A stretch of 64,000 bases of DNA, from IMG/VR virus record IMGVR_UViG_3300049044_000033, positions 222,796 to 286,795 of that record. One strand, written 5' to 3'. This stretch comes from a virus (lineage: Duplodnaviria; Heunggongvirae; Uroviricota; Caudoviricetes). Within the stretch, counting starts at the first letter, position 1. Each line of letters opens with the position of its first letter. A program made the translations under genes and the position numbers. Below are positions 403 to 40,954 of this stretch, in pieces. Under the pieces are notes generated by a model. The model did not search any database. It was given only the letters and a program-made list of their open reading frames with translations, and was not told the DNA's origin.

Positions 403-520
403 TGTGGGATCTCCTTGTTAGGTTTACTCTACTTGTTTAGCAAAAATGGATAGTAGATTTCAATATTCTGGTTGACGTTCTTGCACTAAGAAACTACGGC
501 ATTCCCGAAAGGAGATTCCA

Positions 521-20764: not shown

Positions 20765-21142
20765 ATGAGCAAGGGTTTGTCAAAGGATGATCTAGAGGCT
20801 TGGAAGCAGGTGACCAAGGATGTGACACCCCTTGGTAGTGCCCCTGTGAGCCCCGTAGAAGGCCTGCCCTGTGTTAGGGTGTCAGCGCCTCGCTCAGTAG
20901 AGTATCACCCCCGTATGGACTTACACGGGGCAACAATCCATAATGCTTACGCGATGGTACAAGAGCATGTGCTTAAAGGTGCTATGCTGGGTTATAGAAC
21001 TCTGACCGTTATCAGTGGGAGGTCTGGTCAGATCAACATTGAGATGCCCCGGTGGCTTGAAAGAAATCCGCACGTTAGATCGGTCAACCCTAAAAACGGC
21101 GGCGGAGCCTGGGAAATATGTCTCAAGAGAAAAGATACGTAG
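20765..21142 (+). CDS. Smr (small MutS-related) domain protein
   Basis: MDLHGATIHNAYAMV...LTVISGRSG fits the Smr LDLHG...HGKG core. Confidence 0.6.
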   Translation: MSKGLSKDDLEAWKQVTKDVTPLGSAPVSPVEGLPCVRVSAPRSVEYHPRMDLHGATIHNAYAMVQEHVLKGAMLGYRTLTVISGRSGQINIEMPRWLERNPHVRSVNPKNGGGAWEICLKRKDT

Positions 21143-22755: not shown

Positions 22756-23087
22756 TTGCCACCGAACGTGAGCTTAAACATCGCTGCGATATCCCCTTTA
22801 GACTTGGGAAAAAGGAAGAAGGTGAAATCCCGATAAGAGCTATCAAGCATCATGAGAACTGGCAGATTATGCTGTTCATAAAACTCAGTAGCCTCTGGTC
22901 CACAAATCCTATCGGCCGTATCCGGATAGTCCGTTCTCGGTCGAAGGACAGTGAGTTCGTATCCCTTAATTGGAACGACATGGAATTGTTGCTCCATAGT
23001 GGATACGAACTCAGTATAATCGCAATGGTCAGTCATTCGACCTCCAACAGTTCTTCCTTCGACTTGGACCAGCGCGAGAAGGTCCAA
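22752..23087 (-). CDS. FKLxWGG-family small protein (second cluster)
   Basis: C-terminus AAMFKLTFGGK. Confidence 0.5.
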   Translation of the reverse strand: MDLLALVQVEGRTVGGRMTDHCDYTEFVSTMEQQFHVVPIKGYELTVLRPRTDYPDTADRICGPEATEFYEQHNLPVLMMLDSSYRDFTFFLFPKSKGDIAAMFKLTFGGK

Positions 23088-24187
23088 GCCTGCTTCATGC
23101 GATTCAGCCTCTGACCCATTGCCGGACCAGGCTTCATACCAGTTTCCAGCAGGTCCTTGCCCGAAACCGGGAAGGTCGGGATCACGAAGTTCCTCGCATA
23201 GTCGGCCAGGATAGTTTCACCCTGAACTTCAGCAAAGCTTACAACATGATCCCGAGGAAATTCGTCCCGAGTCAGCAGCACTTCAATCTTCTGCTCATCC
23301 AGGAAGACACCCCGATTGCGGATCATATTCCGAACCTTGGCTTCCTCGTGCGAGCTCATCTTCCAGAACTTGAAGAACTTCTCTTCGTCAGAGCTGGCAA
23401 CCAGTGTCGACAGAGCAGCCAGGGCATCATCGGCGCGAGACAGTTCAGCAGGATTGAAGCGGAACAGACCCAGTGCCCGATTAACCCGAGTCTTGAAGAT
23501 TGCATCAACAATGCGAGTCCGACCCGGCATCTTGGGATCCAGCAGCTTCTGCATTTCCAGCCAGAACCGCTCGACACTAACGACGTTCAGCTTATCCAGC
23601 ACCTCACCCTCGGCGAAGATATCCAGCGTCTCCTGATCCATCTTAGCATCGAAACGGGCTGCGAACCGGAAGAAGCGCAGAATACGCAGGTAGTCCTCTT
23701 CGACCCGCTTGCGCGCATCGCCTACGAATCGAACCACACGATTCTTCAGATCTTCCTGGCCCTTGAAGTAGTCGAATACGTTACCTTCAAAGTCCATCGA
23801 CATTGCGTTGAAGGTCAGGTCACGTCGCTCTGCATCCTCTTCAAACGACCTCGTGAATTCAACCTCAGCATGACGACCGTCAGTCTCGACGTCGATCCGC
23901 AGCGTCGTAACTTCGAAGGGTTCTTTGTCCACAACCAGCGTAGCCGTGCCGTGCTGGATACCAGTGGGAATAAAGCCGAACTTGTTGGTATCGGCGATCA
24001 CCTTCATCTCATCCGGCGTTGCGTCGGTGCAGAAGTCCACATCCTTAGCTTCGACGCCCAGCATGGCATCGCGGACACAACCGCCCACAAAACGAATCTG
24101 GAAGCCTGCTGCTTCAAAAGCAGCACCCAGCTTGTTCGTTTCCGGGGTCATCAGTTTGTCCAGCACGTCGATCTCCTTGTTGTTCAT
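23033..24187 (-). CDS. tRNA nucleotidyltransferase (CCA-adding enzyme) / poly(A) polymerase family
   Basis: 384 aa. GGCVRDAMLG...DVDF head-domain motif of class II nucleotidyltransferases. The plus-strand 322 aa ORF opposite is a shadow. Confidence 0.8.
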   Translation of the reverse strand: MNNKEIDVLDKLMTPETNKLGAAFEAAGFQIRFVGGCVRDAMLGVEAKDVDFCTDATPDEMKVIADTNKFGFIPTGIQHGTATLVVDKEPFEVTTLRIDVETDGRHAEVEFTRSFEEDAERRDLTFNAMSMDFEGNVFDYFKGQEDLKNRVVRFVGDARKRVEEDYLRILRFFRFAARFDAKMDQETLDIFAEGEVLDKLNVVSVERFWLEMQKLLDPKMPGRTRIVDAIFKTRVNRALGLFRFNPAELSRADDALAALSTLVASSDEEKFFKFWKMSSHEEAKVRNMIRNRGVFLDEQKIEVLLTRDEFPRDHVVSFAEVQGETILADYARNFVIPTFPVSGKDLLETGMKPGPAMGQRLNRMKQAWTFSRWSKSKEELLEVE

Positions 24188-24210: not shown

Positions 24211-24465
24211 TTAGGAGTCAACCGCTTTGTGGCACCAAGTATCCCAAGAGAGTCTAGCCAACATAGCGGCTTTTGGATCTAAGAAGAGATGCCAAGACAT
24301 TATGCCATCCTCCTCTGCCATTGATTTATACCACCTCAGGTTCACATCACGCTTGCCACTATAATGGAAGTCCCACGTAGGGTCGTTAGCTTCAAGCCAG
24401 TCGCAGAATGAATCAAATTCGTCCGAGGGGACGTTGACTGTGATGTGAACCTTGTTAGCTGACAT
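24211..24465 (-). CDS. small protein, distant FKL-family relative
   Basis: Internal ATG (MSANK...) avoids overlap with the HNH gene. C-terminus AAMLARLSWDTW. Confidence 0.35.
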   Translation of the reverse strand: MSANKVHITVNVPSDEFDSFCDWLEANDPTWDFHYSGKRDVNLRWYKSMAEEDGIMSWHLFLDPKAAMLARLSWDTWCHKAVDS

Positions 24466-25219
24466 CGACGAGATCCACAGGACTATTGCGGACCTTCTTT
24501 TCCCAATTGTCTCGTCGAACTTGATCCCTACGGGCAATCTCAGCCAAGACTTCATCCACGGCAGACTTCCACTCGGGTTTCACGTAGAGCAAGACCGCAA
24601 TCTTCCACGTGAGGAGTTCCCTCTTCGTGACCTTCTTCTCGTCTGTCTTAACTTTGCGTTCCTTGAGCTTGGCAGCTTTCATCTTACAATAGATGCGCCA
24701 TGCCTCTGGATTCTGTCGTAGCTTGAGGAACTTATTGAATTTCATTTCGCCGCGCAGGTTATTACAACCCGAACAGGTCATAACCACATTGCTCATGTGG
24801 TCAGTGCCACCTCGACTCTGGCACACAATATGCTCAAGAGTAGCACGTCGATTATTCGAAAGAGGAGTTTGACCCGGAAGCCAAGTCTGCTGACCACAGA
24901 AGTAACAGAGCCCACTTTGCTTTTCGAAAAGCTTGCTGGTCTTGTTCCGCCGGGCAATGGTGAACTTAGCGTACCACCACTCCTTATCCTCAGGCGTATG
25001 CCACTTTCTGCGGACTGCTCTGCCTACGACTTTACCGTAACTCTGTCCATCAGGCCGTTTAGCAGGTGCGCTGTTTGAAACTCGAGCAAAGCTGAACGGG
25101 TAGCTTAATGAGGTCGACGAGACCGATAACGGTGTTGACGACAACGGAACCGATGACAGATCCGGCCACGATACCGAGGAAGAGGACGAGCCTTCCAAAA
25201 CCGATCCGCTTACGTCCAA
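24455..25219 (-). CDS. HNH endonuclease (homing-endonuclease-like)
   Basis: CYFCGQQ...ATLEHIVCQSRGGTDHMSNVVMTCSGCNNLRG is an HNH/zinc-finger core. The Ser-rich N-terminus suggests the true start is downstream of 25219. Confidence 0.65.
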   Translation of the reverse strand: MDVSGSVLEGSSSSSVSWPDLSSVPLSSTPLSVSSTSLSYPFSFARVSNSAPAKRPDGQSYGKVVGRAVRRKWHTPEDKEWWYAKFTIARRNKTSKLFEKQSGLCYFCGQQTWLPGQTPLSNNRRATLEHIVCQSRGGTDHMSNVVMTCSGCNNLRGEMKFNKFLKLRQNPEAWRIYCKMKAAKLKERKVKTDEKKVTKRELLTWKIAVLLYVKPEWKSAVDEVLAEIARRDQVRRDNWEKKVRNSPVDLVDVS

Positions 25220-29152: not shown

Positions 29153-30352
29153 TTAGCGGGCATTAAGCTGTGCCTGTCGCTGTGCTGCCGAGGCCAGCGA
29201 TTCCTTGAGCTTCTGCTCTGCTGCGATCAAACGCTGCTCAGCATCGGCGCGCTTGGCCTTACCTTGCTCTGCGAGATCGATGGACTCATTGATCGTAGCG
29301 ATCAAGAGTTCATTAGCCTGTTCCGCTGCCTCAACATCGAAGATGCCGCGCTCGATTTCCTTGCGGGCAACTGCGTTGCTAGTATTGAGCTGCTTCGCGG
29401 ACTGAACGATCAGCTCGTTGGTGAAATCAGTAGCCGTCTTAGTGGCCTTGCCGGCTTCTTCTGCGCGCCATGCTGCAATGGAAACAGCCATAGTGCGCTT
29501 CCAGAGGGGCAAAGTATTGAGCAGCTGACTCTGGATCTTCTCTGCGAGACCCTTATCATTTGCCTGGACGATGCGGATGCTAGGTAGCGCCTGGATGGTC
29601 AGGTTACGCGTCAGCAAGAGATCAGCCCGCTTGCGTTCCAGAGAATCACGAGCTTCGGTCAAGTCCCGCAGATCCTGCACATCTGCCATATCACCGCTGG
29701 CATCGGACTTAGCCTTGGCGGCCGGGATCATATTCGTGTTAACGTCCTCGAGCAGGTAGTCCATAGCGGCAATCTGCTCATCGAGCGAATCCAGCAGACC
29801 CAACGTGGCTTCGTATTGCTTGTCGAGTGCCACAATATCCTTGAGCATCTGGACGCGATGCCCTTCAAGAACGTTGTAGGTCTTGAGAATCTGACCTTCG
29901 ACCGTCTGGTAGCGATCCAGGAACTTCTGCAGGACGCTGGCCTTACCTAGCAGCTTTTGGAAGAAGCCAGGCTTCTGACCAGTAGCAAGAGCCGCAAAAT
30001 CCAGCCCCTTCATTTCGCGGACCATCTGGTTCATCGCGTCGCCGACTGGACCAGTATCCTTGGTACGAACGCCCTGGAGCATTTGTTCGGAAACTTGCGT
30101 AGTTGCCTTCTGTGCTTCAACGCCGAAGGTGATAATCGACTGACTATCCTTGAGGTTGATCTTGCTTGCGAGCTCCTTGGCACGTTCGCGCGACACCTTG
30201 TTGGGAATACGTCCGGCCTGACCATTGAGGCTGACAATATCCTGAGATCCGATCTCAGGCACGGTCAGAGCATTTTCAGCCGTCGGTGTGGGGAGAAGTT
30301 CACCGGTCAACGACGGGGTCGCCGTACCGATCTTTGTAGGATCACTTGCCAT
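29153..30352 (-). CDS. TelA-like (toxic anion resistance family) protein
   Basis: 399 aa alpha-helical protein. Family-level resemblance only. Confidence 0.4.
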   Translation of the reverse strand: MASDPTKIGTATPSLTGELLPTPTAENALTVPEIGSQDIVSLNGQAGRIPNKVSRERAKELASKINLKDSQSIITFGVEAQKATTQVSEQMLQGVRTKDTGPVGDAMNQMVREMKGLDFAALATGQKPGFFQKLLGKASVLQKFLDRYQTVEGQILKTYNVLEGHRVQMLKDIVALDKQYEATLGLLDSLDEQIAAMDYLLEDVNTNMIPAAKAKSDASGDMADVQDLRDLTEARDSLERKRADLLLTRNLTIQALPSIRIVQANDKGLAEKIQSQLLNTLPLWKRTMAVSIAAWRAEEAGKATKTATDFTNELIVQSAKQLNTSNAVARKEIERGIFDVEAAEQANELLIATINESIDLAEQGKAKRADAEQRLIAAEQKLKESLASAAQRQAQLNAR

Positions 30353-30354
30353 TT

Positions 30355-31071
30355 TTAGATTCCCTCGTTGTTGAGTCGGTTCTTCATAACAGTCATGTTG
30401 ACATCAAAGTCCATGACATCATTTGCCAAAAGCTTGTCGAGCAGCTTTTGGAAATTATCATCGATGGTGTCGAGCATTTCGTCGAACTGTGCCATCTGCT
30501 TCTGTGCTTCGAGATTGCGAGCACCGGTCCGGCTCAGCTGAGCATAGCCCTTGACTAGTGTGATCGTTTCATCCAAGTAACTGTTGAGCCAGCTTTGAGC
30601 CAGCAAAACGTCCTTGGGATCAACGCGGAAATCCTCGATGATCTTACGACCAATAGCATCAATATGCTTGATGCGTCGGATTGTGTTGGGGCTCTTGATC
30701 TGGGTAGCTTCCATGAGGATCCGGTCCAGCTTGTCACTGCCCATCTTGATCGCTTCCACGACCAGCTTCGTATCCACGCCCGAAGTACCTGCTGCGATAT
30801 CGTCAATATGCCGGTAGAGATCCTTAATGTCTTGTGCGGTTGCCGGGCGCCGACCAGGGAAGAAGTACCAAATCCCTAATCCAGTTGCTGCGCTCAACGG
30901 GCCAGCTAGTGCGAGATCACCGATAAAGGAAAGTGGGAAAGCAGCCATGCCGCTTACAAAGACACACGTTGCGCCTCCAAATGCTGCTAACTTACTCACT
31001 AGATCTTTGTTCATCGGTTCCTCGCTTAACACTGGCTCCTTTATAGCAAGGTTTACCAATGTGTCTACCAC
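30355..31071 (-). CDS. hypothetical membrane-associated protein (238 aa)
   Basis: ORF with hydrophobic N-terminal segments, coupled to its neighbours. Confidence 0.45.
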   Translation of the reverse strand: MVDTLVNLAIKEPVLSEEPMNKDLVSKLAAFGGATCVFVSGMAAFPLSFIGDLALAGPLSAATGLGIWYFFPGRRPATAQDIKDLYRHIDDIAAGTSGVDTKLVVEAIKMGSDKLDRILMEATQIKSPNTIRRIKHIDAIGRKIIEDFRVDPKDVLLAQSWLNSYLDETITLVKGYAQLSRTGARNLEAQKQMAQFDEMLDTIDDNFQKLLDKLLANDVMDFDVNMTVMKNRLNNEGI

Positions 31072-31129
31072 TGATTAGAAAAGAAAGGGCGACATTGCTG
31101 CCGCCCCTTCTCCTATAGGTTAGTCCAAC

Positions 31130-32869
31130 TTAGTCTTCTGGGTTAATACCAGCAAGCTTCTGGATCTCAGCCTTCTCGCTAGGAGCAAGAGGAGCCTCGA
31201 TTACCGTCTTAGCTACGCGACGTGCTGCTGGCTTTGCAACCTGCGGAGCACCCACGACTGCCAGACCTTCATCATCCAGAGGAGCAGCAACCGATTCGAC
31301 CAGACCATTAAGGCCACGGCTCAGGTCAACGCCAAGCTCGCGAGCCAGTTCGTCAACAACCGGAACCTGCAGTCGGTAGCCCAGCATCGAGTTGGTCAGG
31401 TCAGTAGCGAGGTTTCCTGTAGGAGCCGACTGACCGCCGAAACCTTCGCCATTGGAATGACCGCCCAGGCCACCCATCTGAACTACGCGGATGCTGTCGA
31501 CCTTCTCCATCGGCTTGGTCATCTTTTCCATGATGGCCGGCAGAGCTTCAATCAGAGCCTTGCGCATGTTGTATGCCATCTGGGCAGAGCTTGTCACGTT
31601 AGCAGCTTCGTTGAGGGCGCGCTGACCTTCCGATTCAACTTCGTAACGCTTTGCGTCAGCGTCGATGAGGCGTTCCTTGGCCTGTGCGCTTGCGTCAGCA
31701 GCAGCCAGTTCAGCTTCAGCACGGATACGAATACCCGCAGCTTCTTCCTGAGCCTTAGTCTCAGCCGCAATAACAGCAACCTTCTGGCTACGTTCTGCCT
31801 GTGCCTGTGCCTCAACAGTCTTCACCGCTTCAGCAGCCTTAACAGCTTCCGCGCGAGCAGCATCAGCAGCCGCACGGGCCTTGGATTCCTGCTCCGACTT
31901 CTCAGCAACCGCAATACGTGACTGCTGGCTAGCAATCTCGAGAGCCTGCGCTGCTTCAGTTTCGGCTACCTGGATAGCGCGCTTCTGTTCGACGCGAGCC
32001 TGCTCAGTAGCACGAGCAGCTTCAATTTCTGCCAGATCAGATTCACGCTTACGGTCGGCGCGGGTCTGGGCCAGTTCAGCTTCCTGCTGGGCACGACGGG
32101 TTTCAACTTCGCGCTCCTGCTCCAGGGTAGCGAATTCGTCCTGCTGCTTAATATCCAGCGAGCGCTTGTTGGCTTCGAAGTTCTTCTGCTCAATCGCAAC
32201 GCGGTTGTCAGCTTCGATGTCGTTACGCTCCTTCTTGCGAGTCTCAGTAACCTGAGTCAGCTTCGCAAGACCTTCAGCGTCGAAGGCGTTGTTGGGGTTG
32301 AAGAATTCAACCGAAGTCTGGTCCAGACCAGTTAGCGACACCGATTCAAGTTCCAGACCGTTCTTGCGCAGGTCTTCAGCAACAGTTGCCTGAACCTTCT
32401 GAACAAACTCAGCGCGCTTTTCGTGAAGGTCCTGCATATCCATACCAGCTGCCGCAGCACGGAGAGCGTCGATGAACTTGCCTTCAATTAGCGAAGCCAG
32501 CTGATCAGGAGCCAAGGTGCGGCGACCAAGCGTCTGTGCCGCAGCCGCAATGCTCTGCTCATCTGGAGCAACACGAACATAGAACTCTGCCTTCACGTCA
32601 ACGCGCAGACGGTCCTTAGTGATCAGCGAATCACGACCCTTACGTTCGACACCGAGACGCAGCGTCTGCATGTTGATGGGGATGGTTTCGTGGAACACTG
32701 GCAGAATAACAGCGCCACCGTCCTTAACGACCTTCTGTCCACCCATACCAGTACGGACAAAAGACTGTTCCTTGCTTGCGCGATGGAACATTTTGGTCAT
32801 GATCAAACCGATGACCATGAAACCTACTAGGAAGACGCCTAGCAGAATACCTGCAAATTGAAGAGTCAC
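31130..32869 (-). CDS. SPFH/band-7 flotillin-like protein (YqiK-like)
   Basis: 579 aa. N-terminal TM, SPFH core (VRTGMGGQKVV...), then a long Ala/Glu-rich repetitive coiled coil (AEAELAAADASAQAKE). Confidence 0.75.
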   Translation of the reverse strand: MTLQFAGILLGVFLVGFMVIGLIMTKMFHRASKEQSFVRTGMGGQKVVKDGGAVILPVFHETIPINMQTLRLGVERKGRDSLITKDRLRVDVKAEFYVRVAPDEQSIAAAAQTLGRRTLAPDQLASLIEGKFIDALRAAAAGMDMQDLHEKRAEFVQKVQATVAEDLRKNGLELESVSLTGLDQTSVEFFNPNNAFDAEGLAKLTQVTETRKKERNDIEADNRVAIEQKNFEANKRSLDIKQQDEFATLEQEREVETRRAQQEAELAQTRADRKRESDLAEIEAARATEQARVEQKRAIQVAETEAAQALEIASQQSRIAVAEKSEQESKARAAADAARAEAVKAAEAVKTVEAQAQAERSQKVAVIAAETKAQEEAAGIRIRAEAELAAADASAQAKERLIDADAKRYEVESEGQRALNEAANVTSSAQMAYNMRKALIEALPAIMEKMTKPMEKVDSIRVVQMGGLGGHSNGEGFGGQSAPTGNLATDLTNSMLGYRLQVPVVDELARELGVDLSRGLNGLVESVAAPLDDEGLAVVGAPQVAKPAARRVAKTVIEAPLAPSEKAEIQKLAGINPED

Positions 32870-32885
32870 TTAATTCTCCTATGAA

Positions 32886-33530
32886 TTAGATCTTACGCAC
32901 CATGTGGGCGTGATTAATTGACCTATGTGGACCGGTTAGCACCGCAGTTTCACCCACATCAATATTTTCTTCACCATCGGCAAAGACATAAACGTAATGA
33001 TCAGTACCATACTGATCGGTTACCCGGATTGAACCACTCTGGGTATTTGAGACTGGTCCGACAACAATAGGACCGGATAGATTAGATAAACTTTCCAGAG
33101 ATACCGCGGATGTAATATCTCTAGGCATTAATTGTGCAGCCACAATCGACCCCCAACGAACAAAGGGGAGCGTCAATGAGAACACAATAGGACAACTGAG
33201 CAACATAGGAGCATAGGCACCTGTCAGGCCTTCATAGACCCACTGTGCGCTATATCCAAGGATTGTGAACACTGTGCTGAAGATCACAAGGAAGATCATC
33301 ACTGGAACACTTCCAGGATTAAACCAACCTAAGATGTGAGAGTCTACTTCTAAGTAGTCGGGAATGCCGTTCCCGTTCAGATCCGCAGAGAAATCTATAT
33401 CATGATGGAATGAGCTAAAGCCCAAAATCAATCCGATGATTTCAAGAACCAAAATAGCACCGAGGAGACACGCACTCACAAGGAATGGTGTGTTGGCTTG
33501 TGCTAGTAAGAAAGTAGAAATGTTGTCCAT
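32886..33530 (-). CDS. NfeD-like membrane protein (YqiJ-like partner of flotillin)
   Basis: 214 aa. Multiple TM helices plus a C-terminal beta-rich segment, immediately upstream of the SPFH gene in the same orientation, as in yqiJK operons. Confidence 0.5.
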   Translation of the reverse strand: MDNISTFLLAQANTPFLVSACLLGAILVLEIIGLILGFSSFHHDIDFSADLNGNGIPDYLEVDSHILGWFNPGSVPVMIFLVIFSTVFTILGYSAQWVYEGLTGAYAPMLLSCPIVFSLTLPFVRWGSIVAAQLMPRDITSAVSLESLSNLSGPIVVGPVSNTQSGSIRVTDQYGTDHYVYVFADGEENIDVGETAVLTGPHRSINHAHMVRKI

Positions 33531-34052: not shown

Positions 34053-34124
<72 letters not shown>

Positions 34125-34170
34125 CATGTTGTGTGCTCTCTTTGTAGCACCTACATACCTATTTAGCAAT

Positions 34171-34530
34171 TTAAACTTTGAACTCTTTCTTCAAAGCTTC
34201 TTCCATTTGAGAAAAGGAGAGTGGCTTTTCTAAGACTGTGAAGCCATGGAAGGCTTCCGGAAGCTTATGGGGATCACCGGTGCAAACAATCACAGGGGTG
34301 AGGCTATGCCGGAGGTGCTCTGCTACTTCTTCAGTAGTGCCATCTGTGAGCGTCACATCAAGGACCACCCCGGCGAATCTGCTATTTTCCACAAGCTTTA
34401 TGGCTTCAGGAACTGTTGAGGCAAATCCCGCTACTGTGAGACCGACCTCATCGCATACTTCTTCCCAGTAGATTTGAAGATATGCTTCATCTTCAATAAT
34501 CAGGACTTGTTTGCGATTTATTCCAAACAT
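34171..34530 (-). CDS. stand-alone response-regulator receiver (CheY-like REC) domain protein
   Basis: VLIIEDE acidic pocket, VVLDVTLTDG phospho-acceptor Asp region, PVIVCTG, LEKP Lys. 119 aa with no output domain. Confidence 0.7.
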   Translation of the reverse strand: MFGINRKQVLIIEDEAYLQIYWEEVCDEVGLTVAGFASTVPEAIKLVENSRFAGVVLDVTLTDGTTEEVAEHLRHSLTPVIVCTGDPHKLPEAFHGFTVLEKPLSFSQMEEALKKEFKV

Positions 34531-35604: not shown

Positions 35605-35975
35605 GCCAAAAGAAAATGCCCCGTTTCCGTTGATCAGTCGGGGCCACACTGCACCTAGAGAGTTGATCCTCTAGGGATTGTGAGGCATAGGAGTCTACCG
35701 AAGCTTCTTCCTAACCTCGCCGCAATCAAGCAGCGAGCGCCTCGACAACATTGTTGTCATTTGCATTTACATGCTTGGTCTTTTAGAGGAACCACCCTCG
35801 TCATCTCTCGCAGCCGTTTGCTCCCACGTCGATCCTAAGCTCAGGCCCATCATAACCGCTCTTTGCAGAGCCAAGCCACTCCTTAGGTAAAGTGACTCTC
35901 AGTTATGGTGGACCTGCCGGGTACCGCCCCCGGGTCCGCTAGTCGCTATTAAGCTTTGGTCATCAATAACATCAC
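35605..35975 (-). ncRNA. ssrA: tmRNA (ssrA), circularly permuted two-piece type
   Basis: On the minus strand, an acceptor segment GGAC-CCGGG-GGCGGTA-CCCGG-CAGGTCC-ACCA (T-arm plus 3' acceptor strand plus CCA, ending at plus 35906) lies upstream of a coding segment. That segment starts GGGCCTGAGCTTAGGATCGACGTGGG at plus 35848 (compare E. coli GGGGCUGAUUCUGGAUUCGACGGG) and gives a G3-U wobble with the 3' strand. A PK1-like CGAGGGTGGTTCCTCTAAAAGACC follows, then tag ORF GCA AAT GAC AAC AAT GTT GTC GAG GCG CTC GCT GCT TGA = ANDNNVVEALAA-stop (plus 35765-35727). The terminator hairpin GCCCCG...CGGGGC plus TTTTCTTTT lies at about 35606-35644. The 5' limit of the acceptor piece is not defined. Confidence 0.75.
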
Positions 35976-36009
35976 TCTTATAACATTGGTTTGCCAATGC
36001 GTCAAGAGC

Positions 36010-36315: not shown

Positions 36316-36831
36316 TTATATTTTGTGTTTCTGGTTCAGCAGGGCACGGTGGAACCCCTTGTAGAGATCAAGAGTCATATAGCCTACGAACTTGCTATTC
36401 TGCATCAAAGGGTAACGATCAAATGCACCAACGACGACTACACTGTCACCGAAACGCACATAGTCGTCATCTACAATGAGAAAGCTATCTTGAGGTTCGA
36501 CTAGGATTTTCCAATCTTTGTCGCCGCGATTGCTGCCGAGGTAAGCTTCTCCGCAATCCCAGATCCGAACTTCATAAGTTGCTGGGGGGATTGACTTTGC
36601 GACTTGATCAGCTCTATCGCATTCTTCCAAGATATCATTTAATCTTTCCTTTTGACCCTTACCGCCCGAGGCTTTGAGGATTTTTAGTGCCTCTCGCACC
36701 CATAGGGGCTCACTCAGAACATCTATCTCTTCTTGCGACATTTGCCCCACTGAATCAACCAGAGCTTGTAACCGTGGCTTTTTCTTTGCCACGGCTAACA
36801 ACATCTCATCTTTTGAGTAGTAGGATCTCAT
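36316..36831 (-). CDS. hypothetical protein (171 aa)
   Basis: ORF coupled to the glutaredoxin gene. Confidence 0.45.
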   Translation of the reverse strand: MRSYYSKDEMLLAVAKKKPRLQALVDSVGQMSQEEIDVLSEPLWVREALKILKASGGKGQKERLNDILEECDRADQVAKSIPPATYEVRIWDCGEAYLGSNRGDKDWKILVEPQDSFLIVDDDYVRFGDSVVVVGAFDRYPLMQNSKFVGYMTLDLYKGFHRALLNQKHKI

Positions 36832-37187
36832 GCGTTCTTAAAGTGAGCATCCAGTTCAGTAAAGCCACCGATATATTGCTCACCTAGCCAAATCTGAGGG
36901 ACTGTGCGAGGGGCTGCGCCAGTAGCAGCAGTGACCTTTTCAATCAATTCTTCGCGCAAGTCAACTGCGCTTAGTTCAACATATTCGATACCCTTGCTCT
37001 CAAGCAAATTCTTAGCGCGAACGCAGAATGGGCAATTGGGCTTGCTATAAACTGTTGCTGACATAATATCTTTCCTTGAGTTTTCTTCATACCAGACGAA
37101 TGTCTTACGTTTGGTTAGATCAACCGGGCCAGCTTCCAAGAGTGCTTTCTTGGTTGCTGCCCAGTCTGATTCAAATAGTTTGCTCAT
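36828..37187 (-). CDS. glutaredoxin (NrdC/NrdH-like redoxin for RNR)
   Basis: CPFC active site in YSKPNCPFCVRAKNLL, Grx fold. Immediately downstream of nrdB. Confidence 0.7.
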   Translation of the reverse strand: MSKLFESDWAATKKALLEAGPVDLTKRKTFVWYEENSRKDIMSATVYSKPNCPFCVRAKNLLESKGIEYVELSAVDLREELIEKVTAATGAAPRTVPQIWLGEQYIGGFTELDAHFKNA

Positions 37188-38317
37188 CAGAGCTTGAAAG
37201 TGCTGAAATCGTCGTCACTGGCATCCTGCTTGACGCCGCCAACCACATAGCTCGAAATCTCAGTTTCCTGAGGAGCCACCTGAACCGACTTGCTGGCGAT
37301 CCAGCTAGAAGTCCATGGCAGAGGATTACGAGCAGGAACACTGAACGGAGCCTTGAGACCAACACCGCGCATACGAGTGCCTGCGATATAGTCCACATAC
37401 TCATTCAGCAGAGCTTCGTTGAGACCGATGATGCTACCATCCTTAAACAGGTACTTGGCCCAAGTCTTTTCCTGATCAATAGCAGACAGATACATCTGAA
37501 CCGCTTGTTCCTCAGTTTCCTGAGCAATCTTGATGTAGTCAGCATCATCTGACTTCAAGATGTTACGAAGCAGGTTCTGAGTGGCTGCTAAGTGGAGGTT
37601 TTCGTCACGCGCAATGAACTTGATGATCTTTGCGTTACCTTCCATTCGCTTGTTTTCCGCGAACGCCCACGAGCAAGCAAAGGAAACATAGAAGCGAACA
37701 CCCTCAAGAATGTTGACGCTCATCAGGGTCAACCAAAGCTTCTTCTTCAGTTCATAGGTATCAACCTTAACTGTTTCGCCGTTGACCGTGTGAGTACCTT
37801 CACCTAAGAGTTGATACCACTTAGAAGCCTCAATCAAGTCATCATAGTTGGCAGAGATATCTTTAGCGCAATCTACAATTTCCTGGATTTCCTTCATTGT
37901 GTCGAAGACTTCGCCGGGATTGCTGTAGACGTTACGAATAATGTGGGTATAGGAACGACTGTGGATCGTTTCAAAGAACGCCCAAGTCTGTGCCCAAGTT
38001 TCCATTTCAGGCAAGCTCGTGATACCGCCGAACGCTTGAGTGGGCGAACGACCCTGAACCGAGTCAAGCAGAATCTGACGCTTGAGGTTCGAGGTAAAGA
38101 TGTGCTTCTCATGATCAGTCAGCTTCGCGAAGTCACCACGATCAGTGTTGAGATCGACTTCTTCAGGACGCCAGAAGAAGCCCAGCTGCTGACTGGTCAG
38201 ATGTTCCAGTTCAGGATACTTGACCTGATCGAATCGCTGAATGTCTACAGGACCCGAGGGATCGAAGAACATTCTAGCCGTTAAGTGATCGACCTTATTT
38301 AGGTTAAAGACGCTCAT
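37187..38317 (-). CDS. nrdB: ribonucleoside-diphosphate reductase beta subunit (class Ia)
   Basis: 376 aa. Diiron/tyrosyl ferritin-like motifs EGVRFYVSFA...ARDENLH. Confidence 0.9.
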   Translation of the reverse strand: MSVFNLNKVDHLTARMFFDPSGPVDIQRFDQVKYPELEHLTSQQLGFFWRPEEVDLNTDRGDFAKLTDHEKHIFTSNLKRQILLDSVQGRSPTQAFGGITSLPEMETWAQTWAFFETIHSRSYTHIIRNVYSNPGEVFDTMKEIQEIVDCAKDISANYDDLIEASKWYQLLGEGTHTVNGETVKVDTYELKKKLWLTLMSVNILEGVRFYVSFACSWAFAENKRMEGNAKIIKFIARDENLHLAATQNLLRNILKSDDADYIKIAQETEEQAVQMYLSAIDQEKTWAKYLFKDGSIIGLNEALLNEYVDYIAGTRMRGVGLKAPFSVPARNPLPWTSSWIASKSVQVAPQETEISSYVVGGVKQDASDDDFSTFKL

Positions 38318-38544
38318 TTGGCCCCTTTCAGTTTGTTGATTTCATATTCGATTGTGCGGAGACGAACAGAGATATAGATTGCCAGACTTCCTGCTAGGCA
38401 TTCACGACCATTGGCCAAAATGTCATTGGGAACCTTCTGGTTATCAATGGCTACCATGAAGGGTAAATCTGGTTGACCCACTTTGTAGATCATCTGTTTC
38501 AAATATTCTCGCTCTTCTTCGAGAGCTTTTATCTGGGCGTTCAT
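38314..38544 (-). CDS. hypothetical small protein between nrdA and nrdB
   Basis: 76 aa ORF overlapping the nrdB start. Confidence 0.4.
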   Translation of the reverse strand: MNAQIKALEEEREYLKQMIYKVGQPDLPFMVAIDNQKVPNDILANGRECLAGSLAIYISVRLRTIEYEINKLKGAK

Positions 38545-38641
38545 CGCCTTCTCCTTTTCACCAGAATACTAGAAACTGGTGGGAAAGTCTATCTTTGACA
38601 GACAAGCCCGCGAGCGAAAATCACCCGCGGGCTCATTGACC

Positions 38642-40954
38642 TCAAAGCTTACAAGAGTCGCAGTCGTCGTCTTCAAGAAGTTCCAACTGACCTTCCTCAG
38701 TTTCAACCTCAGGAGTATCCTTCAAAAGAGTGATATCTTCCTGACCATCATAGGTGTTGAAGTAGTAGAGGTTCTTACCGCCATACTTGTAGAAAGTTAG
38801 CAAGTCAGTGATCATATCCTTCATCGAGATCTCACGATCAGGATAATGCTCTGGATTGTAGGAAGTGTTGATGCTCGCACTCTGATCCAGGTACTTATTC
38901 AACACACAAGCAATCTTCAGATAACCACGCGGGCTCTTCTGATCCCAAAGGAGTTCATACTTGTTCTTCAGCTTGCCAATCTCAGGAACAACCTGCTTCA
39001 AAACACCGTGCTTGCTAACCTTCTCACTAACTAGCGCACGAACTGGCTCAATGCCGTTTGTGGAGTTCGAGAGCTGTGCAGAAGTCTCAGCTGGCATGAG
39101 TGCCATCAGTGTGGTGTTGCGAATGCTAGTGTTGAGCAACTGAGTGCGAAGCTCTTCCCATGGCATACGGAACTCGGGAGCAACTAGCTCGTTGACTTCT
39201 TCCTTGTAGGTGTCGATAGGCAGAATACCCTTGGAGTATTTGCTCATGTCAGCCCTTGGAGCAGCACCTTTTTCTACTGCCAAATCAGCCGAAGCCTTGA
39301 TCAGATAGTAGGACATGCCTTCCATGTATTCATCAACTAGAGGCAACGCACCGTCATCATACTTCAAGCCATTCTTAGCCAAGAAGTAAGCTAGGTTAAT
39401 GATGCCCACGCCTAAGGGACGAAGTTCCTTGGTCGCAAGTTCAGCTGCCTTAACGGGGTAGTTCTGATAGCTGAGGATCTCATCGAGGAATCGAACAACC
39501 AGCTTGGCTGGCTTTTCGAAATCGTGAGGTGTCTTAACTCGACCCCAATTGAGAGCACTTAAGGTGCAAAGGCTGATACGACCATTAGGGTCATCAAAGC
39601 TCTGCATTGGCACTGTGGGAAGAGTGATTTCCTGACACAGGTTGGACTGTGTGATTGGCGCTAGTTCAGGAATATAAGAGCCATGCGAGTTGGCATGGTC
39701 AATATTCATGAGGTAGATACGACCAGTTTCCTTACGCTCGGTCATGAACGTAACGAACACATCCAAAGCCTTCATGGACTTCTTACGGATCGTTGGATCG
39801 TTCTCATACTGAACGTAGAGTTCGTCGAACTTGTCCTGATCAGCGTAGAAAGCATCTAGGAGACCTGGCACATCCTTAGGGCTGAAGAATGTGATGTTAC
39901 CACCTTCAACGAGACGCTTATACATCATGCGGTTGAAGAGGAAGCTGTAGTCCAACTGACGGATACGATTGAATTCAGTACCCTTGTTGTTCTTCAGAAC
40001 GACCAGATCCTCAAACTCGTAATGCCATAGCGGGAAGTGAACCGTAGCAGCACCACCACGAACGCCACCCTGCGAACAGCTCTTAACTGCTGCTTGCATC
40101 CAGCGCACGAAAGGCAGAAGACCAGTATGCTCTGCATCACCGTTCCTGATCTTGCTACCAAGAGCACGAACACGACCCATGTCAATACCTAGGCCGGCCT
40201 TCTGGCTGATATACTTGATCACGCTGCTATTCGTGGCAACCAGAGAATCCAAGGAGTCATCAGTCGCGATAGTAACGCAAGAGCTGAACTGCTTCTGGGG
40301 AGTCCTCAGTCCTGCCATAATGGGCGTAGGCAAGCTGATGTCAAACTGGCTAACTGCGTCGTAGAAGTCCTTAACATAATCCATACGAGTTTCGCGTGGA
40401 TAAGCCATGAACCCGATTGCGCTGATGAGAACCAGAGCAATCTGTGGAGTCTCGAAGAACTGACCAGAAACGCGATCCTTGACAAGGTATTTGCCGCGCC
40501 ACTGTTCCATGCCCGCATAGGCGATCAAGTCATCGCGCTGATGCTTGACAATCTTCTCAATCTTCTTCCAATCATCTTCGGAATAGTTGTCGAGCAGTTC
40601 CTGGGTATAATGACCCAGCGAAACGTTCTTCTCAACAACCTGCTTGACTGTCCATGGTTCATAGCGGCCATAGACTTCCTTACGAAGCTGATAAGATGCG
40701 AGACGACTCGCAACATACTGATAGTTTGGAGTATCTTCACTGATCAGTTCACTAGCACTCTTAACGAGCAGCTCGTGAATCTTAGTGCTCAAAACACCGT
40801 CTTCCAACTGTAGCTTGGCGCGGAGTTCAATCTCCGAAGGCGAAACGCCTGCAAGTTCTTCACAAGCCCAGAAGACAACCTTATGGATTTTCTCGAGGTC
40901 CAATGCCTCTTTTCGGCCGTCCCGCTTGACGACCATAATTGGTGTGTTGCCCAT
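38642..40954 (-). CDS. nrdA: ribonucleoside-diphosphate reductase alpha subunit (class Ia, with ATP-cone)
   Basis: 770 aa. N-terminal ATP-cone (VVKRDGRKE), catalytic Cys/Asn/Glu region, C-terminal CxxC tail (CDSCKL). Confidence 0.9.
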   Translation of the reverse strand: MGNTPIMVVKRDGRKEALDLEKIHKVVFWACEELAGVSPSEIELRAKLQLEDGVLSTKIHELLVKSASELISEDTPNYQYVASRLASYQLRKEVYGRYEPWTVKQVVEKNVSLGHYTQELLDNYSEDDWKKIEKIVKHQRDDLIAYAGMEQWRGKYLVKDRVSGQFFETPQIALVLISAIGFMAYPRETRMDYVKDFYDAVSQFDISLPTPIMAGLRTPQKQFSSCVTIATDDSLDSLVATNSSVIKYISQKAGLGIDMGRVRALGSKIRNGDAEHTGLLPFVRWMQAAVKSCSQGGVRGGAATVHFPLWHYEFEDLVVLKNNKGTEFNRIRQLDYSFLFNRMMYKRLVEGGNITFFSPKDVPGLLDAFYADQDKFDELYVQYENDPTIRKKSMKALDVFVTFMTERKETGRIYLMNIDHANSHGSYIPELAPITQSNLCQEITLPTVPMQSFDDPNGRISLCTLSALNWGRVKTPHDFEKPAKLVVRFLDEILSYQNYPVKAAELATKELRPLGVGIINLAYFLAKNGLKYDDGALPLVDEYMEGMSYYLIKASADLAVEKGAAPRADMSKYSKGILPIDTYKEEVNELVAPEFRMPWEELRTQLLNTSIRNTTLMALMPAETSAQLSNSTNGIEPVRALVSEKVSKHGVLKQVVPEIGKLKNKYELLWDQKSPRGYLKIACVLNKYLDQSASINTSYNPEHYPDREISMKDMITDLLTFYKYGGKNLYYFNTYDGQEDITLLKDTPEVETEEGQLELLEDDDCDSCKL

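What the first reader, a model, noticed from the sequence alone, without database searches (positions are those of the whole stretch)
35605..35975. Phage-encoded circularly permuted (two-piece type) tmRNA gene
The minus strand of a 400 nt ORF-free gap contains every hallmark of ssrA, but in permuted order.

1. A T-arm/acceptor-3'-strand/CCA module GGAC-CCGGG-GGCGGTA-CCCGG-CAGGTCC-ACCA, architecturally parallel to E. coli GGAC-GGGGG-UUCAACU-CCCCC-CAGCUCC-ACCA.
2. 57 nt downstream, a 5' acceptor strand GGGCCUG that pairs with CAGGUCC through a G3-U wobble (the AlaRS identity element). It is followed by AGCUUAGGAUCGACGUGGG (compare E. coli AUUCUGGAUUCGACGGG) and a PK1-like CGAGGGUGGUUCCUCUAAAAGACC.
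3. A resume-codon-initiated tag frame GCA AAU GAC AAC AAU GUU GUC GAG GCG CUC GCU GCU UGA encoding ANDNNVVEALAA-stop, with the canonical ALAA degron ending.
4. A terminator hairpin plus U-run.

Because the CCA-bearing piece precedes the coding piece, this has the gene organisation of two-piece tmRNAs known from alphaproteobacteria and marine cyanobacteria, which hints at host range. A phage carrying its own trans-translation RNA, alongside its own ClpX, IF3, bS21 and a bL12-domain protein, suggests deliberate control of ribosome rescue and tag-directed proteolysis during infection.
Basis: partly seen in the sequence, partly recalled or inferred. Interest (0 to 1): 0.85.

Follow-up and report, generated by a model that had tools for sequence, protein, structure and literature searches.

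The report
Phage-encoded two-piece tmRNA gene
A giant phage related to Sinorhizobium and Agrobacterium jumbo phages carries a complete, structurally conserved gene for the alphaproteobacterial "two-piece" ribosome-rescue RNA (tmRNA); the call is correct, but phages with such genes are already documented, so it is a new example rather than a new kind of thing.

Summary
On the minus strand, window 36005-35608 holds a complete circularly permuted (two-piece) tmRNA gene. Two Rfam covariance models score far above their curated thresholds: tmRNA_permuted at 96.2 bits (threshold 47) and alpha_tmRNA at 84.7 bits (threshold 50).

- T-arm, 3' acceptor strand and CCA
- a 57-nt intervening segment
- the 5' acceptor strand, with G3-U70
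- pseudoknot PK1
- resume codon GCA with the conserved A at -4
- tag ANDNNVVEALAA
- stop codon in the loop of helix P5
- terminator

Related viral sequences show compensatory changes in the acceptor stem, P2a, PK1, P5, a 3' hairpin and the precursor stem. The gene is therefore under selection as an RNA.

The window is a jumbo phage related to Sinorhizobium phage Phosso and Agrobacterium phage Atu_ph07. ClpX, IF3, an S21-like protein and an L12-domain protein are all really present in it.

It is not new in kind. Two-piece phage tmRNAs were surveyed in 2022, and the related Sinorhizobium phage AP-J-162 is reported with one tmRNA.

Useful side results:
- ARAGORN misses this gene.
- Phosso has an unannotated homologue.
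- The gene sits downstream of nrdA-nrdB-glutaredoxin in many viral contigs.

Function (ribosome rescue plus tagging for ClpXP) is inferred, not shown.

The parts
35977..36005 (-). Sigma-70-like promoter: -35 TTGACG (36005-36000), 17-nt spacer, -10 TATAAG (35982-35977). It predicts a transcript start near 35971.
   Evidence: Read from the sequence. TTGAC-N16/17-TATAxx sits at the same place upstream of the homologues in L006, L014, L018, L053, L086 and Phosso. The consensus scan did not list it because the last base of the -10 is G, not T.
35906..35971 (-). Acceptor piece (about 66 nt). It contains the 5' strands of helix P2 (UGUUA 35971-35967, AAGC 35956-35953, GCG 35939-35937), the T-arm (stem CCGGG 35933-35929 / CCCGG 35921-35917, loop GGCGGUA 35928-35922), the 3' acceptor strand CAGGUCC 35916-35910, discriminator A 35909 and CCA 35908-35906.
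   Evidence: Rfam alignments. T-arm and acceptor stem are recovered by MFE folding. The acceptor stem and P2a covary in 19 viral sequences.
35849..35905 (-). Intervening segment (57 nt), to be excised from the precursor. Its ends UAACUG / CGGUUA pair and extend the acceptor stem. Inside it are two hairpins: AGUCACU...AGUGGCU, and GCUCU-GCAA-AGAGC. The leader UGAU precedes G1.
   Evidence: The terminal stem of this segment covaries strongly across 19 viral sequences; alignment columns 88-98/164-173 each have 1-9 sequences changed on both sides. Segment length ranges from 5 to 410 nt in 109 viral homologues.
35612..35848 (-). Coding piece. It contains the 5' acceptor strand GGGCCUG 35848-35842 (G3 at 35846 pairs with U70 at 35912), the conserved AGGAUCGAC 35836-35828, the 3' strands of P2, then PK1, the tag reading frame, P5 and the 3' domain.
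   Evidence: Rfam alignments and sequence. The 3' end of the mature RNA is not known.
35776..35799 (-). Pseudoknot PK1. Stem 1 is GAGG 35799-35796 / CCUC 35789-35786. Stem 2 is UGGUU 35794-35790 / GACCA 35780-35776. It ends 11 nt before the resume codon.
   Evidence: Stem 1 is the hairpin in the Rfam tmRNA_permuted alignment. There are two compensatory pair changes in stem 1 between the window and L006/L208/L209 (A-U to G-C and G-C to A-U), and stem 2 is kept.
35726..35764 (-). Tag reading frame. Resume codon GCA is at 35764-35762, with A at -4 (35768) and U at -5 (35769). Twelve codons encode ANDNNVVEALAA. The stop UGA is at 35728-35726.
   Evidence: The A at -4 is invariant in 19 viral homologues (alignment column 300). 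This position corresponds to E. coli A86, which is required for frame selection (PMC2481249).
35716..35737 (-). Helix P5: CUCGCUGC 35737-35730 / GCGGCGAG 35723-35716, 8 bp, with the stop codon in the 6-nt loop UUGAUU.
   Evidence: MFE and centroid structures. The homologous helix in L006/L208 (CUGGCCGC / GCGGCUAG, stop UAA in the loop) keeps all 8 pairs despite three changed positions.
35654..35718 (-). Clade-specific 3' domain. Hairpin a spans 35718-35682 (loop with GAAGCUUCGGU). Hairpin b spans 35675-35654 (CCUAGAG / CUCUAGG). It replaces the GAAACAGAA-containing 3' region of other alpha-type tmRNAs.
   Evidence: Hairpin b shows a compensatory A-U to G-C change in L006/L208/L209. The GAAACAGAA motif is present in Phosso, L107, L014, L018, L053 and L086 but absent here and in L006.
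35608..35644 (-). Terminator-like hairpin GCCCCG 35644-35639 / CGGGGC 35623-35618, followed by AUUUUCUUUU 35617-35608.
   Evidence: The consensus scan does not list it because the loop is 15 nt. The hairpin is conserved in L006, but there it is not followed by a U-run, so it may also belong to the mature RNA.

Best explanation
This is a functional, phage-encoded ssrA gene of the alphaproteobacterial circularly permuted type.

Proposed mechanism:
1. The gene is transcribed from its own sigma-70-like promoter as a precursor of about 360 nt.
2. In the precursor, the ends of a 57-nt intervening segment pair and extend the acceptor stem.
3. Host tRNA-processing enzymes release two RNAs. RNase P cuts at G1 (35848). 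A 3' processing activity trims after the encoded CCA (35906).
4. The products are an acceptor piece of about 66 nt and a coding piece. They stay together through the 7-bp acceptor stem and helix P2.
5. The complex is charged with alanine by host AlaRS, using G3-U70 and A73.
6. With host SmpB, it enters ribosomes stalled on broken or stop-less mRNAs.
7. Translation switches to GCA at 35764, and (A)ANDNNVVEALAA is added to the nascent chain.
8. The ribosome is released at UGA.
9. The C-terminal LAA tag delivers the product to ClpXP. The phage supplies its own ClpX.

The likely benefit to the phage is more rescue capacity. Host mRNA is being destroyed and the translation apparatus is saturated, so extra rescue keeps ribosomes and amino acids available.

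What is shown: the identity, completeness and selective conservation of the RNA.

What is inferred from what is established for bacterial two-piece tmRNA: transcription, processing, charging, the SmpB partnership, tagging and the benefit.
For: **Identity**
- RF04321 scores 96.2 bits and RF01849 84.7 bits. Both are full length and both are above their gathering scores.

**Completeness**
- G1-C72, G2-C71, G3-U70, A73 and an encoded CCA are present.
- The alpha-type T-loop GGCGGUA is present.
- PK1 ends 11 nt before the resume codon.
- U(-5) and A(-4) precede GCA. A(-4) is the position required in E. coli (PMC2481249) and is invariant in 19 viral homologues.
- The 12-codon tag ends in ALAA, and the stop codon lies in the loop of an 8-bp P5.

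**Selection on structure**
- RNAalifold on 19 viral sequences finds 28 pairs, 14 of them with changes on both sides. These cover acceptor-stem positions 2-4, P2a and the stem formed by the intervening segment.
- Against the closest relatives (L006, L208, L209; about 70% nt identity) there are compensatory changes in PK1 stem 1 (two pairs) and in 3' hairpin b, and pairing is kept in P5.
- The precursor fold has z = -3.6.

**Own transcription unit**
- A TTGAC-N17-TATAAG promoter is conserved in relatives.
- A hairpin plus U-run follows the gene.

**Phage context, not a host fragment**
- The window encodes T4-type topoisomerase II, NrdAB, DnaB and virion proteins. Its best matches are jumbo phages Phosso and Atu_ph07.
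- L006 is syntenic over 14 genes.
- Phosso has a homologous gene at 113 bits.
- 109 IMG/VR contigs carry complete genes of this type.
- 62 of 119 loci have nrdB upstream on the same strand.

**Partner for the tag**
- The window's ClpX keeps the zinc finger, Walker A, GYVG, RKH and IGF motifs.
Against: - There are no expression or processing data.
- ARAGORN does not call the gene.
- In the Rfam alignment, P2 has two non-standard pairs and is short.
- The 3' domain does not match the alpha consensus and lacks the GAAACAGAA motif. The usual second pseudoknot of two-piece tmRNAs is therefore not evident.
- The -10 hexamer ends in G, and the consensus promoter scan misses it.
- No SmpB or ClpP gene is in the window. 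No Sinorhizobium or Agrobacterium phage appears among the phage records with an SmpB match that were listed. The RNA must therefore rely on host SmpB, and compatibility is untested.
- The benefit to the phage is conjecture.
Confidence: 0.88

Rival explanations
1. The RNA is made but acts mainly as a competitor or re-programmer of host trans-translation, not as extra rescue capacity. In this reading it displaces host tmRNA on SmpB and ribosomes. Stalled products then receive the phage's tag, whose middle residues differ from host tags, and are routed to the phage ClpX or escape host adaptor proteins. Alternatively it counters host defences that cut mRNA or tRNA.
For: - The middle of the tag (NVVE) differs from the A. 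tumefaciens tag (NAKEY), while both ends are kept.
- The phage encodes its own ClpX with an intact RKH loop, plus IF3, an S21-like protein, an L12-domain protein, an Smr-domain protein and a CCA-adding enzyme. That looks like broad takeover of translation.
- The acceptor stem GGGCCUG/CAGGUCC occurs in 5 viral sequences but in none of 185,579 bacterial or archaeal species genomes together with the alpha T-loop. This suggests a virus-adapted lineage.
- A coding-less phage tmRNA (DS6A) is reported to inhibit host tmRNA (PMC11915505).
Against: - All elements needed for ordinary tagging and release are intact and conserved, and the degron end ALAA is canonical.
- Nothing in the sequence distinguishes 'more of the same' from 'replacement'.
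- The host and its tag are unknown.
Confidence: 0.08
2. The gene is a passenger. Either it is a recently captured host ssrA copy, or it is a leftover of recombination with an element that integrates at ssrA. In either case it has no role in the phage life cycle and is decaying.
For: - ssrA is a common integration site, and fragments of it occur in prophages (PMC9004378; PMC12595487).
- The 3' domain departs from the alpha consensus.
Against: - Both pieces, the promoter and the terminator are present.
- None of the 93 window ORFs scanned (of 98 candidates) matches an integrase family.
- Homologues sit at the same syntenic position in L006 and downstream of nrdAB-grx in 49-62 other viral loci.
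- Compensatory changes maintain helices at about 70% nt identity. That is the signature of purifying selection on structure, not decay.
- No bacterial genome shares the acceptor variant, which argues against recent capture.
Confidence: 0.03
3. The region resembles tmRNA by chance and contains no RNA gene.
For: ARAGORN is negative.
Against: - Covariance-model E-values are 2e-17 and 2e-21.
- Homologues score 82-130 bits.
- Covariation is present.
- ARAGORN misses 44% of this class.
Confidence: 0.01

Closest known systems
Two-piece (circularly permuted) tmRNA of Alphaproteobacteria, Rfam RF01849. The type case is Caulobacter crescentus (Keiler, Shapiro and Williams 2000, cited in PMC3985003 and PMC11915505).
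   Same: - Gene order: acceptor piece, intervening segment, coding piece.
- T-loop GGCGGUA, G3-U70, A73 and an encoded CCA.
- The AGGAUCGAC motif and PK1 before the tag.
- A tag beginning ANDN and ending LAA. The model consensus reads ANDNYAPVALAA.
- Stop codon in the P5 loop.
   Different: - It is encoded by a phage.
- The acceptor stem GGGCCUG/CAGGUCC was not found in bacterial genomes.
- P2 is shorter.
- The 3' domain is replaced by three hairpins and lacks the GAAACAGAA motif. The score is therefore only 84.7 bits on a 355-position model.
Two-piece tmRNAs of marine phages: OM43 phage Melnitz, pelagimyophages such as Mosig, and some cyanophages (Buchholz et al. 2022, PMC9004378).
   Same: - A phage-borne, complete, alpha-type permuted ssrA in T4-like myoviruses with no integrase.
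- The proposed roles are the same: maintaining the hijacked translation machinery, or tagging proteins for recycling.
- Many IMG/VR homologues share the nrdA-nrdB-glutaredoxin neighbourhood with the window.
   Different: - No glutamine riboswitch is attached. Rfam finds only the tmRNA and one tRNA in the window.
- The phage is of the jumbo rhizobiophage lineage, whereas 50 of the 53 two-piece phage tmRNAs in that survey came from marine or aquatic phages.
- ARAGORN, the tool used in that survey, does not detect this one.
tmRNA of Sinorhizobium jumbo phages AP-J-162 (PMC11242549) and Phosso (PV764938).
   Same: - Same phage lineage. Topoisomerase II is 69% identical to Phosso's. The clpX-IF3-topoisomerase, S21 and L7/L12 gene set matches the one described for AP-J-162.
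- AP-J-162 is listed with one tmRNA.
- Phosso has an alpha-type permuted tmRNA at 349.5-350.2 kb (113 bits).
   Different: - Phosso's gene is not annotated. It has a 410-nt intervening segment, the tag ANDNVSTKVALAA, the acceptor stem GGGGCUG/CAGCUCC and the canonical GAAACAGAA 3' region.
- There is no detectable nucleotide similarity to the window outside the T-arm.
- Atu_ph07 is reported with no tmRNA.
One-piece tmRNA genes of other phages (349 of 402 tmRNA-carrying phage genomes in PMC9004378) and the coding-less tmRNA-like RNA of mycobacteriophage DS6A (PMC11915505).
   Same: A phage-borne ssrA-type RNA with a tRNA-like domain.
   Different: - Those genes are in standard order, not permuted.
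- DS6A lacks a tag reading frame and is reported to inhibit host tmRNA, whereas the window gene has a complete tag frame.

Membership tests
tmRNA, circularly permuted alpha type (Rfam RF04321 / RF01849) | Covariance-model score at or above the curated gathering score, over the full model length | tested here: met
   96.2 bits against 47 (model 1-213 of 213), and 84.7 bits against 50 (model 1-355 of 355).
tmRNA, circularly permuted alpha type (Rfam RF04321 / RF01849) | Permuted gene order: T-arm, 3' acceptor strand and CCA lie upstream of the 5' acceptor strand and the tag frame | tested here: met
   CCA ends at 35906 and G1 is at 35848, 57 nt downstream on the same strand.
tmRNA (any form) | tRNA-Ala-like acceptor stem of 7 bp with G3-U70, discriminator A73 and a 3' CCA | tested here: met
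   GGGCCUG and CAGGUCC pair 7/7, with G3 (35846) opposite U70 (35912), followed by A and CCA. The stem covaries at positions 2-4 in 19 viral sequences.
tmRNA (any form) | T-arm of 5 bp with a 7-nt loop (alpha type: GGCGGUA), and a D-loop analogue AGGAUCGAC | tested here: met
   CCGGG-GGCGGUA-CCCGG at 35933-35917. AGGAUCGAC at 35836-35828.
tmRNA (any form) | Helix P2 joining the tRNA-like domain to the rest of the RNA. In two-piece forms it also holds the pieces together. | tested here: inconclusive
   The Rfam alignment pairs four short segments, with two non-standard pairs. Only the innermost three pairs (P2a) are supported by covariation. MFE cofolding prefers a partly different pairing.
tmRNA (any form) | Pseudoknot PK1 shortly upstream of the resume codon | tested here: met
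   Stem 1 GAGG/CCUC and stem 2 UGGUU/GACCA end 11 nt before GCA. There are two compensatory changes in stem 1 against L006/L208/L209. The pseudoknot itself was assembled by hand, not by a pseudoknot-aware program.
tmRNA (any form) | Resume codon (usually GCN) preceded by the conserved A at -4 (E. coli A86). Short tag frame ending in a hydrophobic xAA degron. Stop codon in the P5 loop. | tested here: met
   U(-5), A(-4) and GCA are present, the tag is ANDNNVVEALAA, and UGA lies in the loop of an 8-bp P5. The A at -4 is invariant in 19 homologues. The requirement for A86 is from PMC2481249.
Two-piece tmRNA (mature form) | The precursor is cut into a separate acceptor piece and coding piece, which stay base-paired | not testable with these tools
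   There is only indirect support. The precursor stem of the intervening segment is conserved and covaries, and the leader UGAU before G1 is conserved.
Two-piece tmRNA (mature form) | A second pseudoknot (PK2) after the tag frame, typical of alpha two-piece tmRNAs (PMC3985003) | tested here: not met
   The 3' region aligns poorly to RF01849 and lacks the GAAACAGAA motif of relatives. It folds as three hairpins. This feature is typical of the family rather than defining.
Trans-translation system | Alanylation by AlaRS, binding to SmpB and EF-Tu, and tagging of stalled nascent chains | not testable with these tools
   No SmpB is encoded in the window. Host SmpB is assumed.

The most novel reading that the evidence does not exclude
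The gene belongs to an old, virus-specific lineage of two-piece tmRNA.

In this reading the lineage has been inherited vertically, next to nrdA-nrdB-glutaredoxin, in T4-like and jumbo phages of Alphaproteobacteria. It would not have been captured repeatedly from hosts.

In the window's clade the RNA has an acceptor stem not seen in any bacterial genome, and a rebuilt 3' domain. It would work with the phage's own ClpX (RKH loop intact), Smr-domain nuclease, CCA-adding enzyme, IF3, S21 and L12-domain protein as one phage-run ribosome-rescue and proteolysis circuit.
Probability: 0.25. Interest if true: 0.5.

Novelty: new member of a known kind. Interest (0 to 1): 0.3.

Why it matters
The finding adds a well-supported example of a lytic jumbo phage carrying its own ribosome-rescue RNA. 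The lineage is that of soil rhizobiophages, whereas nearly all two-piece phage tmRNAs surveyed so far were marine or aquatic.

Practical points:
- The standard detector (ARAGORN) misses this gene, misses the homologue in the published Phosso genome, and misses about 44% of comparable viral genes. Phage tmRNA counts in the literature are therefore underestimates. Covariance models should be used instead.
- The tmRNA type and its tag give a cheap host-class hint (Alphaproteobacteria, with a Rhizobiaceae-like tag).

Biological points:
- A complete tmRNA sits in one genome with a phage ClpX that keeps the tag-recognition loop, an Smr-domain protein and a CCA-adding enzyme. This makes a testable case that large phages manage stalled ribosomes themselves.
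- None of this changes what tmRNA is understood to be.

Tried and rejected
- **ARAGORN**, both as the tool and run locally with -m and thresholds lowered to 80%, finds nothing at the locus. I rejected this as evidence against the gene after seeing that ARAGORN misses 47 of 108 clear homologues, and Phosso's gene as well.
- **blastn of the 421-nt region against 50,697 phage records** gave no match at E 1e-5. Only a relaxed search with the T-arm gave short hits, which led to Phosso.
- **The Atu_ph07 region syntenic with the upstream ORF** (10-30 kb) holds no tmRNA. I did not scan the rest of that genome. The literature lists none.
- **Host search by exact pattern in 185,579 species genomes.** The 32-mer gave zero hits. 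The looser 23-mer gave 86 hits, all of them chance matches without a T-stem or coding piece. No donor or host was identified, and no bacterial alpha tmRNAs were available for a tree.
- **RNAalifold on 19 sequences** did not recover P2b-d or PK1, because that region aligns badly. Those helices rest on the Rfam alignment and on hand comparison with the closest clade.
- **The consensus promoter/terminator scan** lists neither the promoter nor the terminator on the minus strand, because of its strict rules on the last base of the -10 and on loop size.
- **Integration-site remnant idea:** rejected. None of the 93 window ORFs scanned matches an integrase family, and both pieces are present.
- **Riboswitch control as in phage Melnitz:** no Rfam riboswitch hit in the window.
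- **The jumbo-phage transduction paper** concerns islands at the host tmRNA gene and is not relevant here.
- **The original two-piece papers** (PMC16621, PMC516066) are not held in the library.
Full report
**1. The observation**

- The T-arm, 3' acceptor strand and CCA module GGAC-CCGGG-GGCGGTA-CCCGG-CAGGTCC-ACCA occupies 35937-35906.
- Exactly 57 nt further on, GGGCCTG (35848-35842) pairs 7/7 with CAGGTCC, with G3 opposite U70.
- AGGAUCGAC follows. A PK1-like element lies at 35799-35776.
- The frame GCA...GCU UGA (35764-35726) encodes ANDNNVVEALAA.
- A hairpin plus U-run closes the unit at 35644-35608.

Rfam cmscan of the whole window returns three matches above the gathering score:

| Family | Position (strand) | Bits | Gathering score | E-value |
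|---|---|---|---|---|
| tmRNA_permuted RF04321 | 35971-35726 (-) | 96.2 | 47 | 2e-17 |
| alpha_tmRNA RF01849 | 36009-35687 (-) | 84.7 | 50 | 2e-21 |
| tRNA-Thr | 34054-34125 (-) | 64.5 | 29 | 1e-11 |

The 364-nt predicted precursor folds with z = -3.6 against dinucleotide shuffles. The minimum-energy fold recovers the T-arm, the acceptor stem, P5 and the terminator.

**2. ARAGORN**

It does not report the gene, either in the tool run or locally with relaxed thresholds. I tested whether that matters.

ARAGORN finds only 61 of 108 complete alpha-type permuted tmRNAs that I extracted from viral contigs. It also misses the gene in phage Phosso. This is a sensitivity limit of the program, not evidence against the gene.

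**3. What genome this is**

Profile searches of the large ORFs give:
- T4-type topoisomerase II subunits
- ribonucleotide reductase NrdA and NrdB
- a DnaB-type helicase
- virion structural proteins

tblastn places the window next to Sinorhizobium phage Phosso (469 kb) and Agrobacterium phage Atu_ph07 (490 kb). The topoisomerase large subunit is 69% and 60% identical to theirs, respectively. No nucleotide-level match exists in 50,697 phage records. The window is therefore a distinct jumbo phage of that lineage.

- ClpX at 4469-5719
- IF3 at 3873-4409
- a protein with an L12 C-terminal domain at 18072-18650

The window also holds a CCA-adding enzyme at 23033-24187 and an Smr-domain protein, probably at 20765-21142. 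There is no SmpB, no ClpP and no integrase in the window.

The published description of Sinorhizobium phage AP-J-162 gives 471.5 kb, 47.1% G+C, clpX next to IF-3 and topoisomerase, S21, L7/L12 and one tmRNA. That matches this layout closely (PMC11242549). The gene spacing differs, however, so the window is a relative and not that phage.

**4. Anatomy**

*Promoter.* The promoter is TTGACG (36005-36000), a 17-nt spacer, then TATAAG (35982-35977). The same arrangement precedes the homologues in L006, L014, L018, L053, L086 and Phosso.

*Acceptor piece (35971-35906).* It carries the 5' strands of P2, the T-arm with the alpha-type loop GGCGGUA, the strand CAGGUCC, A73 and CCA.

*Intervening segment (35905-35849).* Its ends (UAACUG / CGGUUA) pair, extending the acceptor stem. 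It holds two internal hairpins.

*Coding piece (from G1 at 35848).* It contains, in order:
- PK1, with stem 1 GAGG/CCUC and stem 2 UGGUU/GACCA, ending 11 nt before the resume codon
- U at -5 and A at -4 before GCA. These are the equivalents of E. coli U85 and A86, and A86 is required for frame choice (PMC2481249)
- the tag frame
- the stop codon in the 6-nt loop of an 8-bp P5 (35737-35716)

*3' domain.* Three hairpins follow (35718-35682, 35675-35654, 35644-35618). The last is followed by AUUUUCUUUU.

*Weak points.* P2 is short and has two non-standard pairs in the Rfam alignment. The 3' domain does not resemble the alpha consensus and lacks the GAAACAGAA motif that Phosso and other viral homologues have.

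**5. Relatives and selection**

A scan of IMG/VR for the alpha T-arm returned more than 119 contigs. In 109 of 121 T-arm hits (IMG/VR loci, Phosso and the window) I could locate the complementary 5' acceptor strand plus GGAUYGAC downstream. The intervening segments run from 5 to 410 nt, and the tags are of the ANDN...LAA type.

The closest relative is L006 (IMGVR_UViG_3300017694_000020). It is 70% identical over 416 nt and syntenic over 14 genes at 48-89% amino-acid identity. Two further members of that clade, L208 and L209, came from pattern scans.

RNAalifold on 19 viral sequences predicts 28 pairs, 14 of them with changes on both sides. These cover acceptor-stem positions 2-4, P2a and the long stem made by the ends of the intervening segment.

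Between the window and the L006 clade:
- PK1 stem 1 shows two compensatory changes.
- Hairpin b shows one.
- P5 keeps all eight pairs despite three changed positions.

The RNA is therefore under purifying selection for structure in phages.

**6. Origin**

The acceptor stem GGGCCUG/CAGGUCC occurs in five viral sequences. The 32-mer joining the alpha T-arm to this strand is absent from one genome each of 185,579 bacterial and archaeal species. A looser pattern gave 86 hits, none of which is a tmRNA.

nrdA, nrdB and glutaredoxin lie upstream on the same strand as the tmRNA in 49, 62 and 55 of 119 viral loci, respectively. The window shows the same order.

Both observations favour long residence in phage genomes over recent capture. 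I could not build a tree with bacterial sequences to test this.

**7. Mechanism**

*Shown:* a complete, conserved, independently promoted alpha-type permuted ssrA gene in a phage.

*Inferred from what is established for bacterial two-piece tmRNA.* The precursor is probably processed by RNase P and a tRNA 3' processing enzyme, and the Caulobacter two-piece RNA is functional (PMC3985003). On that basis:
1. The precursor is cut at G1 and after the CCA.
2. The two pieces stay paired.
3. Host AlaRS charges the RNA.
4. Host SmpB delivers it to stalled ribosomes.
5. (A)ANDNNVVEALAA is added to the nascent chain.
6. ClpXP degrades the tagged product.

The phage ClpX keeps the zinc finger, Walker A, GYVG, RKH and IGF motifs. 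By my own knowledge of ClpX, these are the pore, tag-contacting and ClpP-docking loops.

The likely benefit is extra rescue capacity while host mRNAs are degraded. The same idea has been proposed for marine phages (PMC9004378). A re-programming or decoy role cannot be excluded. A relic or integration-site origin is unlikely, and chance is excluded.

**8. Comparison and novelty**

The gene is a member of the permuted alpha tmRNA family by score and by all sequence-testable defining features. P2 is inconclusive and the typical second pseudoknot is absent.

Phage-borne two-piece tmRNAs are documented. In a survey of 18,146 phage genomes, 402 carried a tmRNA. Of 133 unique structures, 53 were two-piece, and 50 of those came from marine or aquatic phages (PMC9004378). 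AP-J-162 is listed with one tmRNA and Atu_ph07 with none. Phosso has an unannotated one.

The window's gene is thus a new member of a known kind. It has a clade-specific 3' domain and acceptor stem. The tag shares ANDNN and ALAA with A. tumefaciens ANDNNAKEYALAA (PMC12493166), which fits a Rhizobiaceae-like host.

**9. Verdict**

The finding is real and correctly interpreted, but of modest novelty. Interest is 0.3.

The most novel reading still open is a virus-specific tmRNA lineage that operates with the phage's own ClpX, Smr-domain protein and CCA-adding enzyme as a rescue circuit. Its probability is about 0.25, and it would deserve an interest of about 0.5 if true.

Noticed in passing
L120 5554-6243 (-), which is PV764938.1 about 349553-350242: Sinorhizobium phage Phosso has a permuted alpha-type tmRNA (RF04321 113.3 bits, RF01849 108 bits) in a 752-bp gap with no annotated feature. 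Its intervening segment is 410 nt, the longest of 109 viral examples, and its tag is ANDNVSTKVALAA. ARAGORN does not find it.
   Followed up: partly
L001-L119 (IMG/VR loci): ARAGORN -m detects only 61 of 108 complete alpha-type permuted tmRNAs in these viral contigs. Surveys and annotations that rely on it undercount phage two-piece tmRNAs.
   Followed up: partly
window 36828-40954 (-) and L001-L119: nrdA, nrdB and glutaredoxin lie upstream of the tmRNA on the same strand in 49, 62 and 55 of 119 viral loci, respectively. The median distance from nrdB is about 2.3 kb, and the window shows the same order. This synteny is widely conserved, and I have not seen it described.
   Followed up: partly
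window 35848-35842 and 35916-35910; L006, L010, L018, L107: The acceptor stem GGGCCUG/CAGGUCC (C4-G69 instead of G4-C69) occurs in five viral tmRNAs. Together with the alpha T-loop, it was not found in any of 185,579 bacterial or archaeal species genomes.
   Followed up: partly
window 35956-35951 and 35706-35701 (-): The self-complementary hexamer AAGCUU occurs both in the acceptor piece (where Rfam assigns it to P2) and in the conserved loop GAAGCUUCGGU of 3' hairpin a. Both copies are conserved in L006, L208 and L209. This could be a contact between the two pieces; it has not been tested.
   Followed up: no
L006 about 14180-14215, L210, compared with L208 and L209: Near-identical contigs differ by a 14-nt insertion after PK1 and a rewritten resume region. 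L006/L210 have GUC at the homologous resume position (ARAGORN tag VNDNTVVEARLAA). L208/L209 have GCA (tag ANDNTVVEARLAA).
   Followed up: no
window 4469-5719 (-): The phage ClpX (416 aa) has an intact zinc finger, Walker A, GYVG pore loop, RKH loop and IGF loop. IF3 lies immediately downstream at 3873-4409 (-). No ClpP is in the window.
   Followed up: partly
window 20765-21142 (+) and 23033-24187 (-): There is an Smr-domain ORF (DLHG motif; a Pfam Smr hit at E 6e-7 within the ORF set) and a CCA-adding enzyme (PolyA_pol head plus tRNA_NucTran2_2). Both activities could feed into or support tmRNA and tRNA function.
   Followed up: partly
window 142-417 (-) and 18072-18650 (-): There is an S21-like small ORF (phmmer E 1.4e-5 against E. 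coli S21) and a 192-aa protein with only a partial L7/L12 C-terminal domain (Pfam E 1.6e-7, 27 residues matched).
   Followed up: partly
window 29153-33530 (-): A cluster of membrane-stress-type genes: TelA (toxic anion resistance), a Halogen_Hydrol/XpaC-like protein, an SPFH/flotillin protein of 579 aa, and a YqiJ-like protein. Phosso has SPFH and TelA genes near its tmRNA as well.
   Followed up: no
window 34171-34530 (-) and 34053-34125 (-): There is a stand-alone response-regulator receiver domain protein (119 aa) next to tRNA-Thr(GGU). This is the only tRNA in 64 kb, although relatives carry 33-66 tRNAs.
   Followed up: no
window 24455-25219 (-): An HNH endonuclease ORF (254 aa) lies among small unknown genes. 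It may be a homing endonuclease.
   Followed up: no
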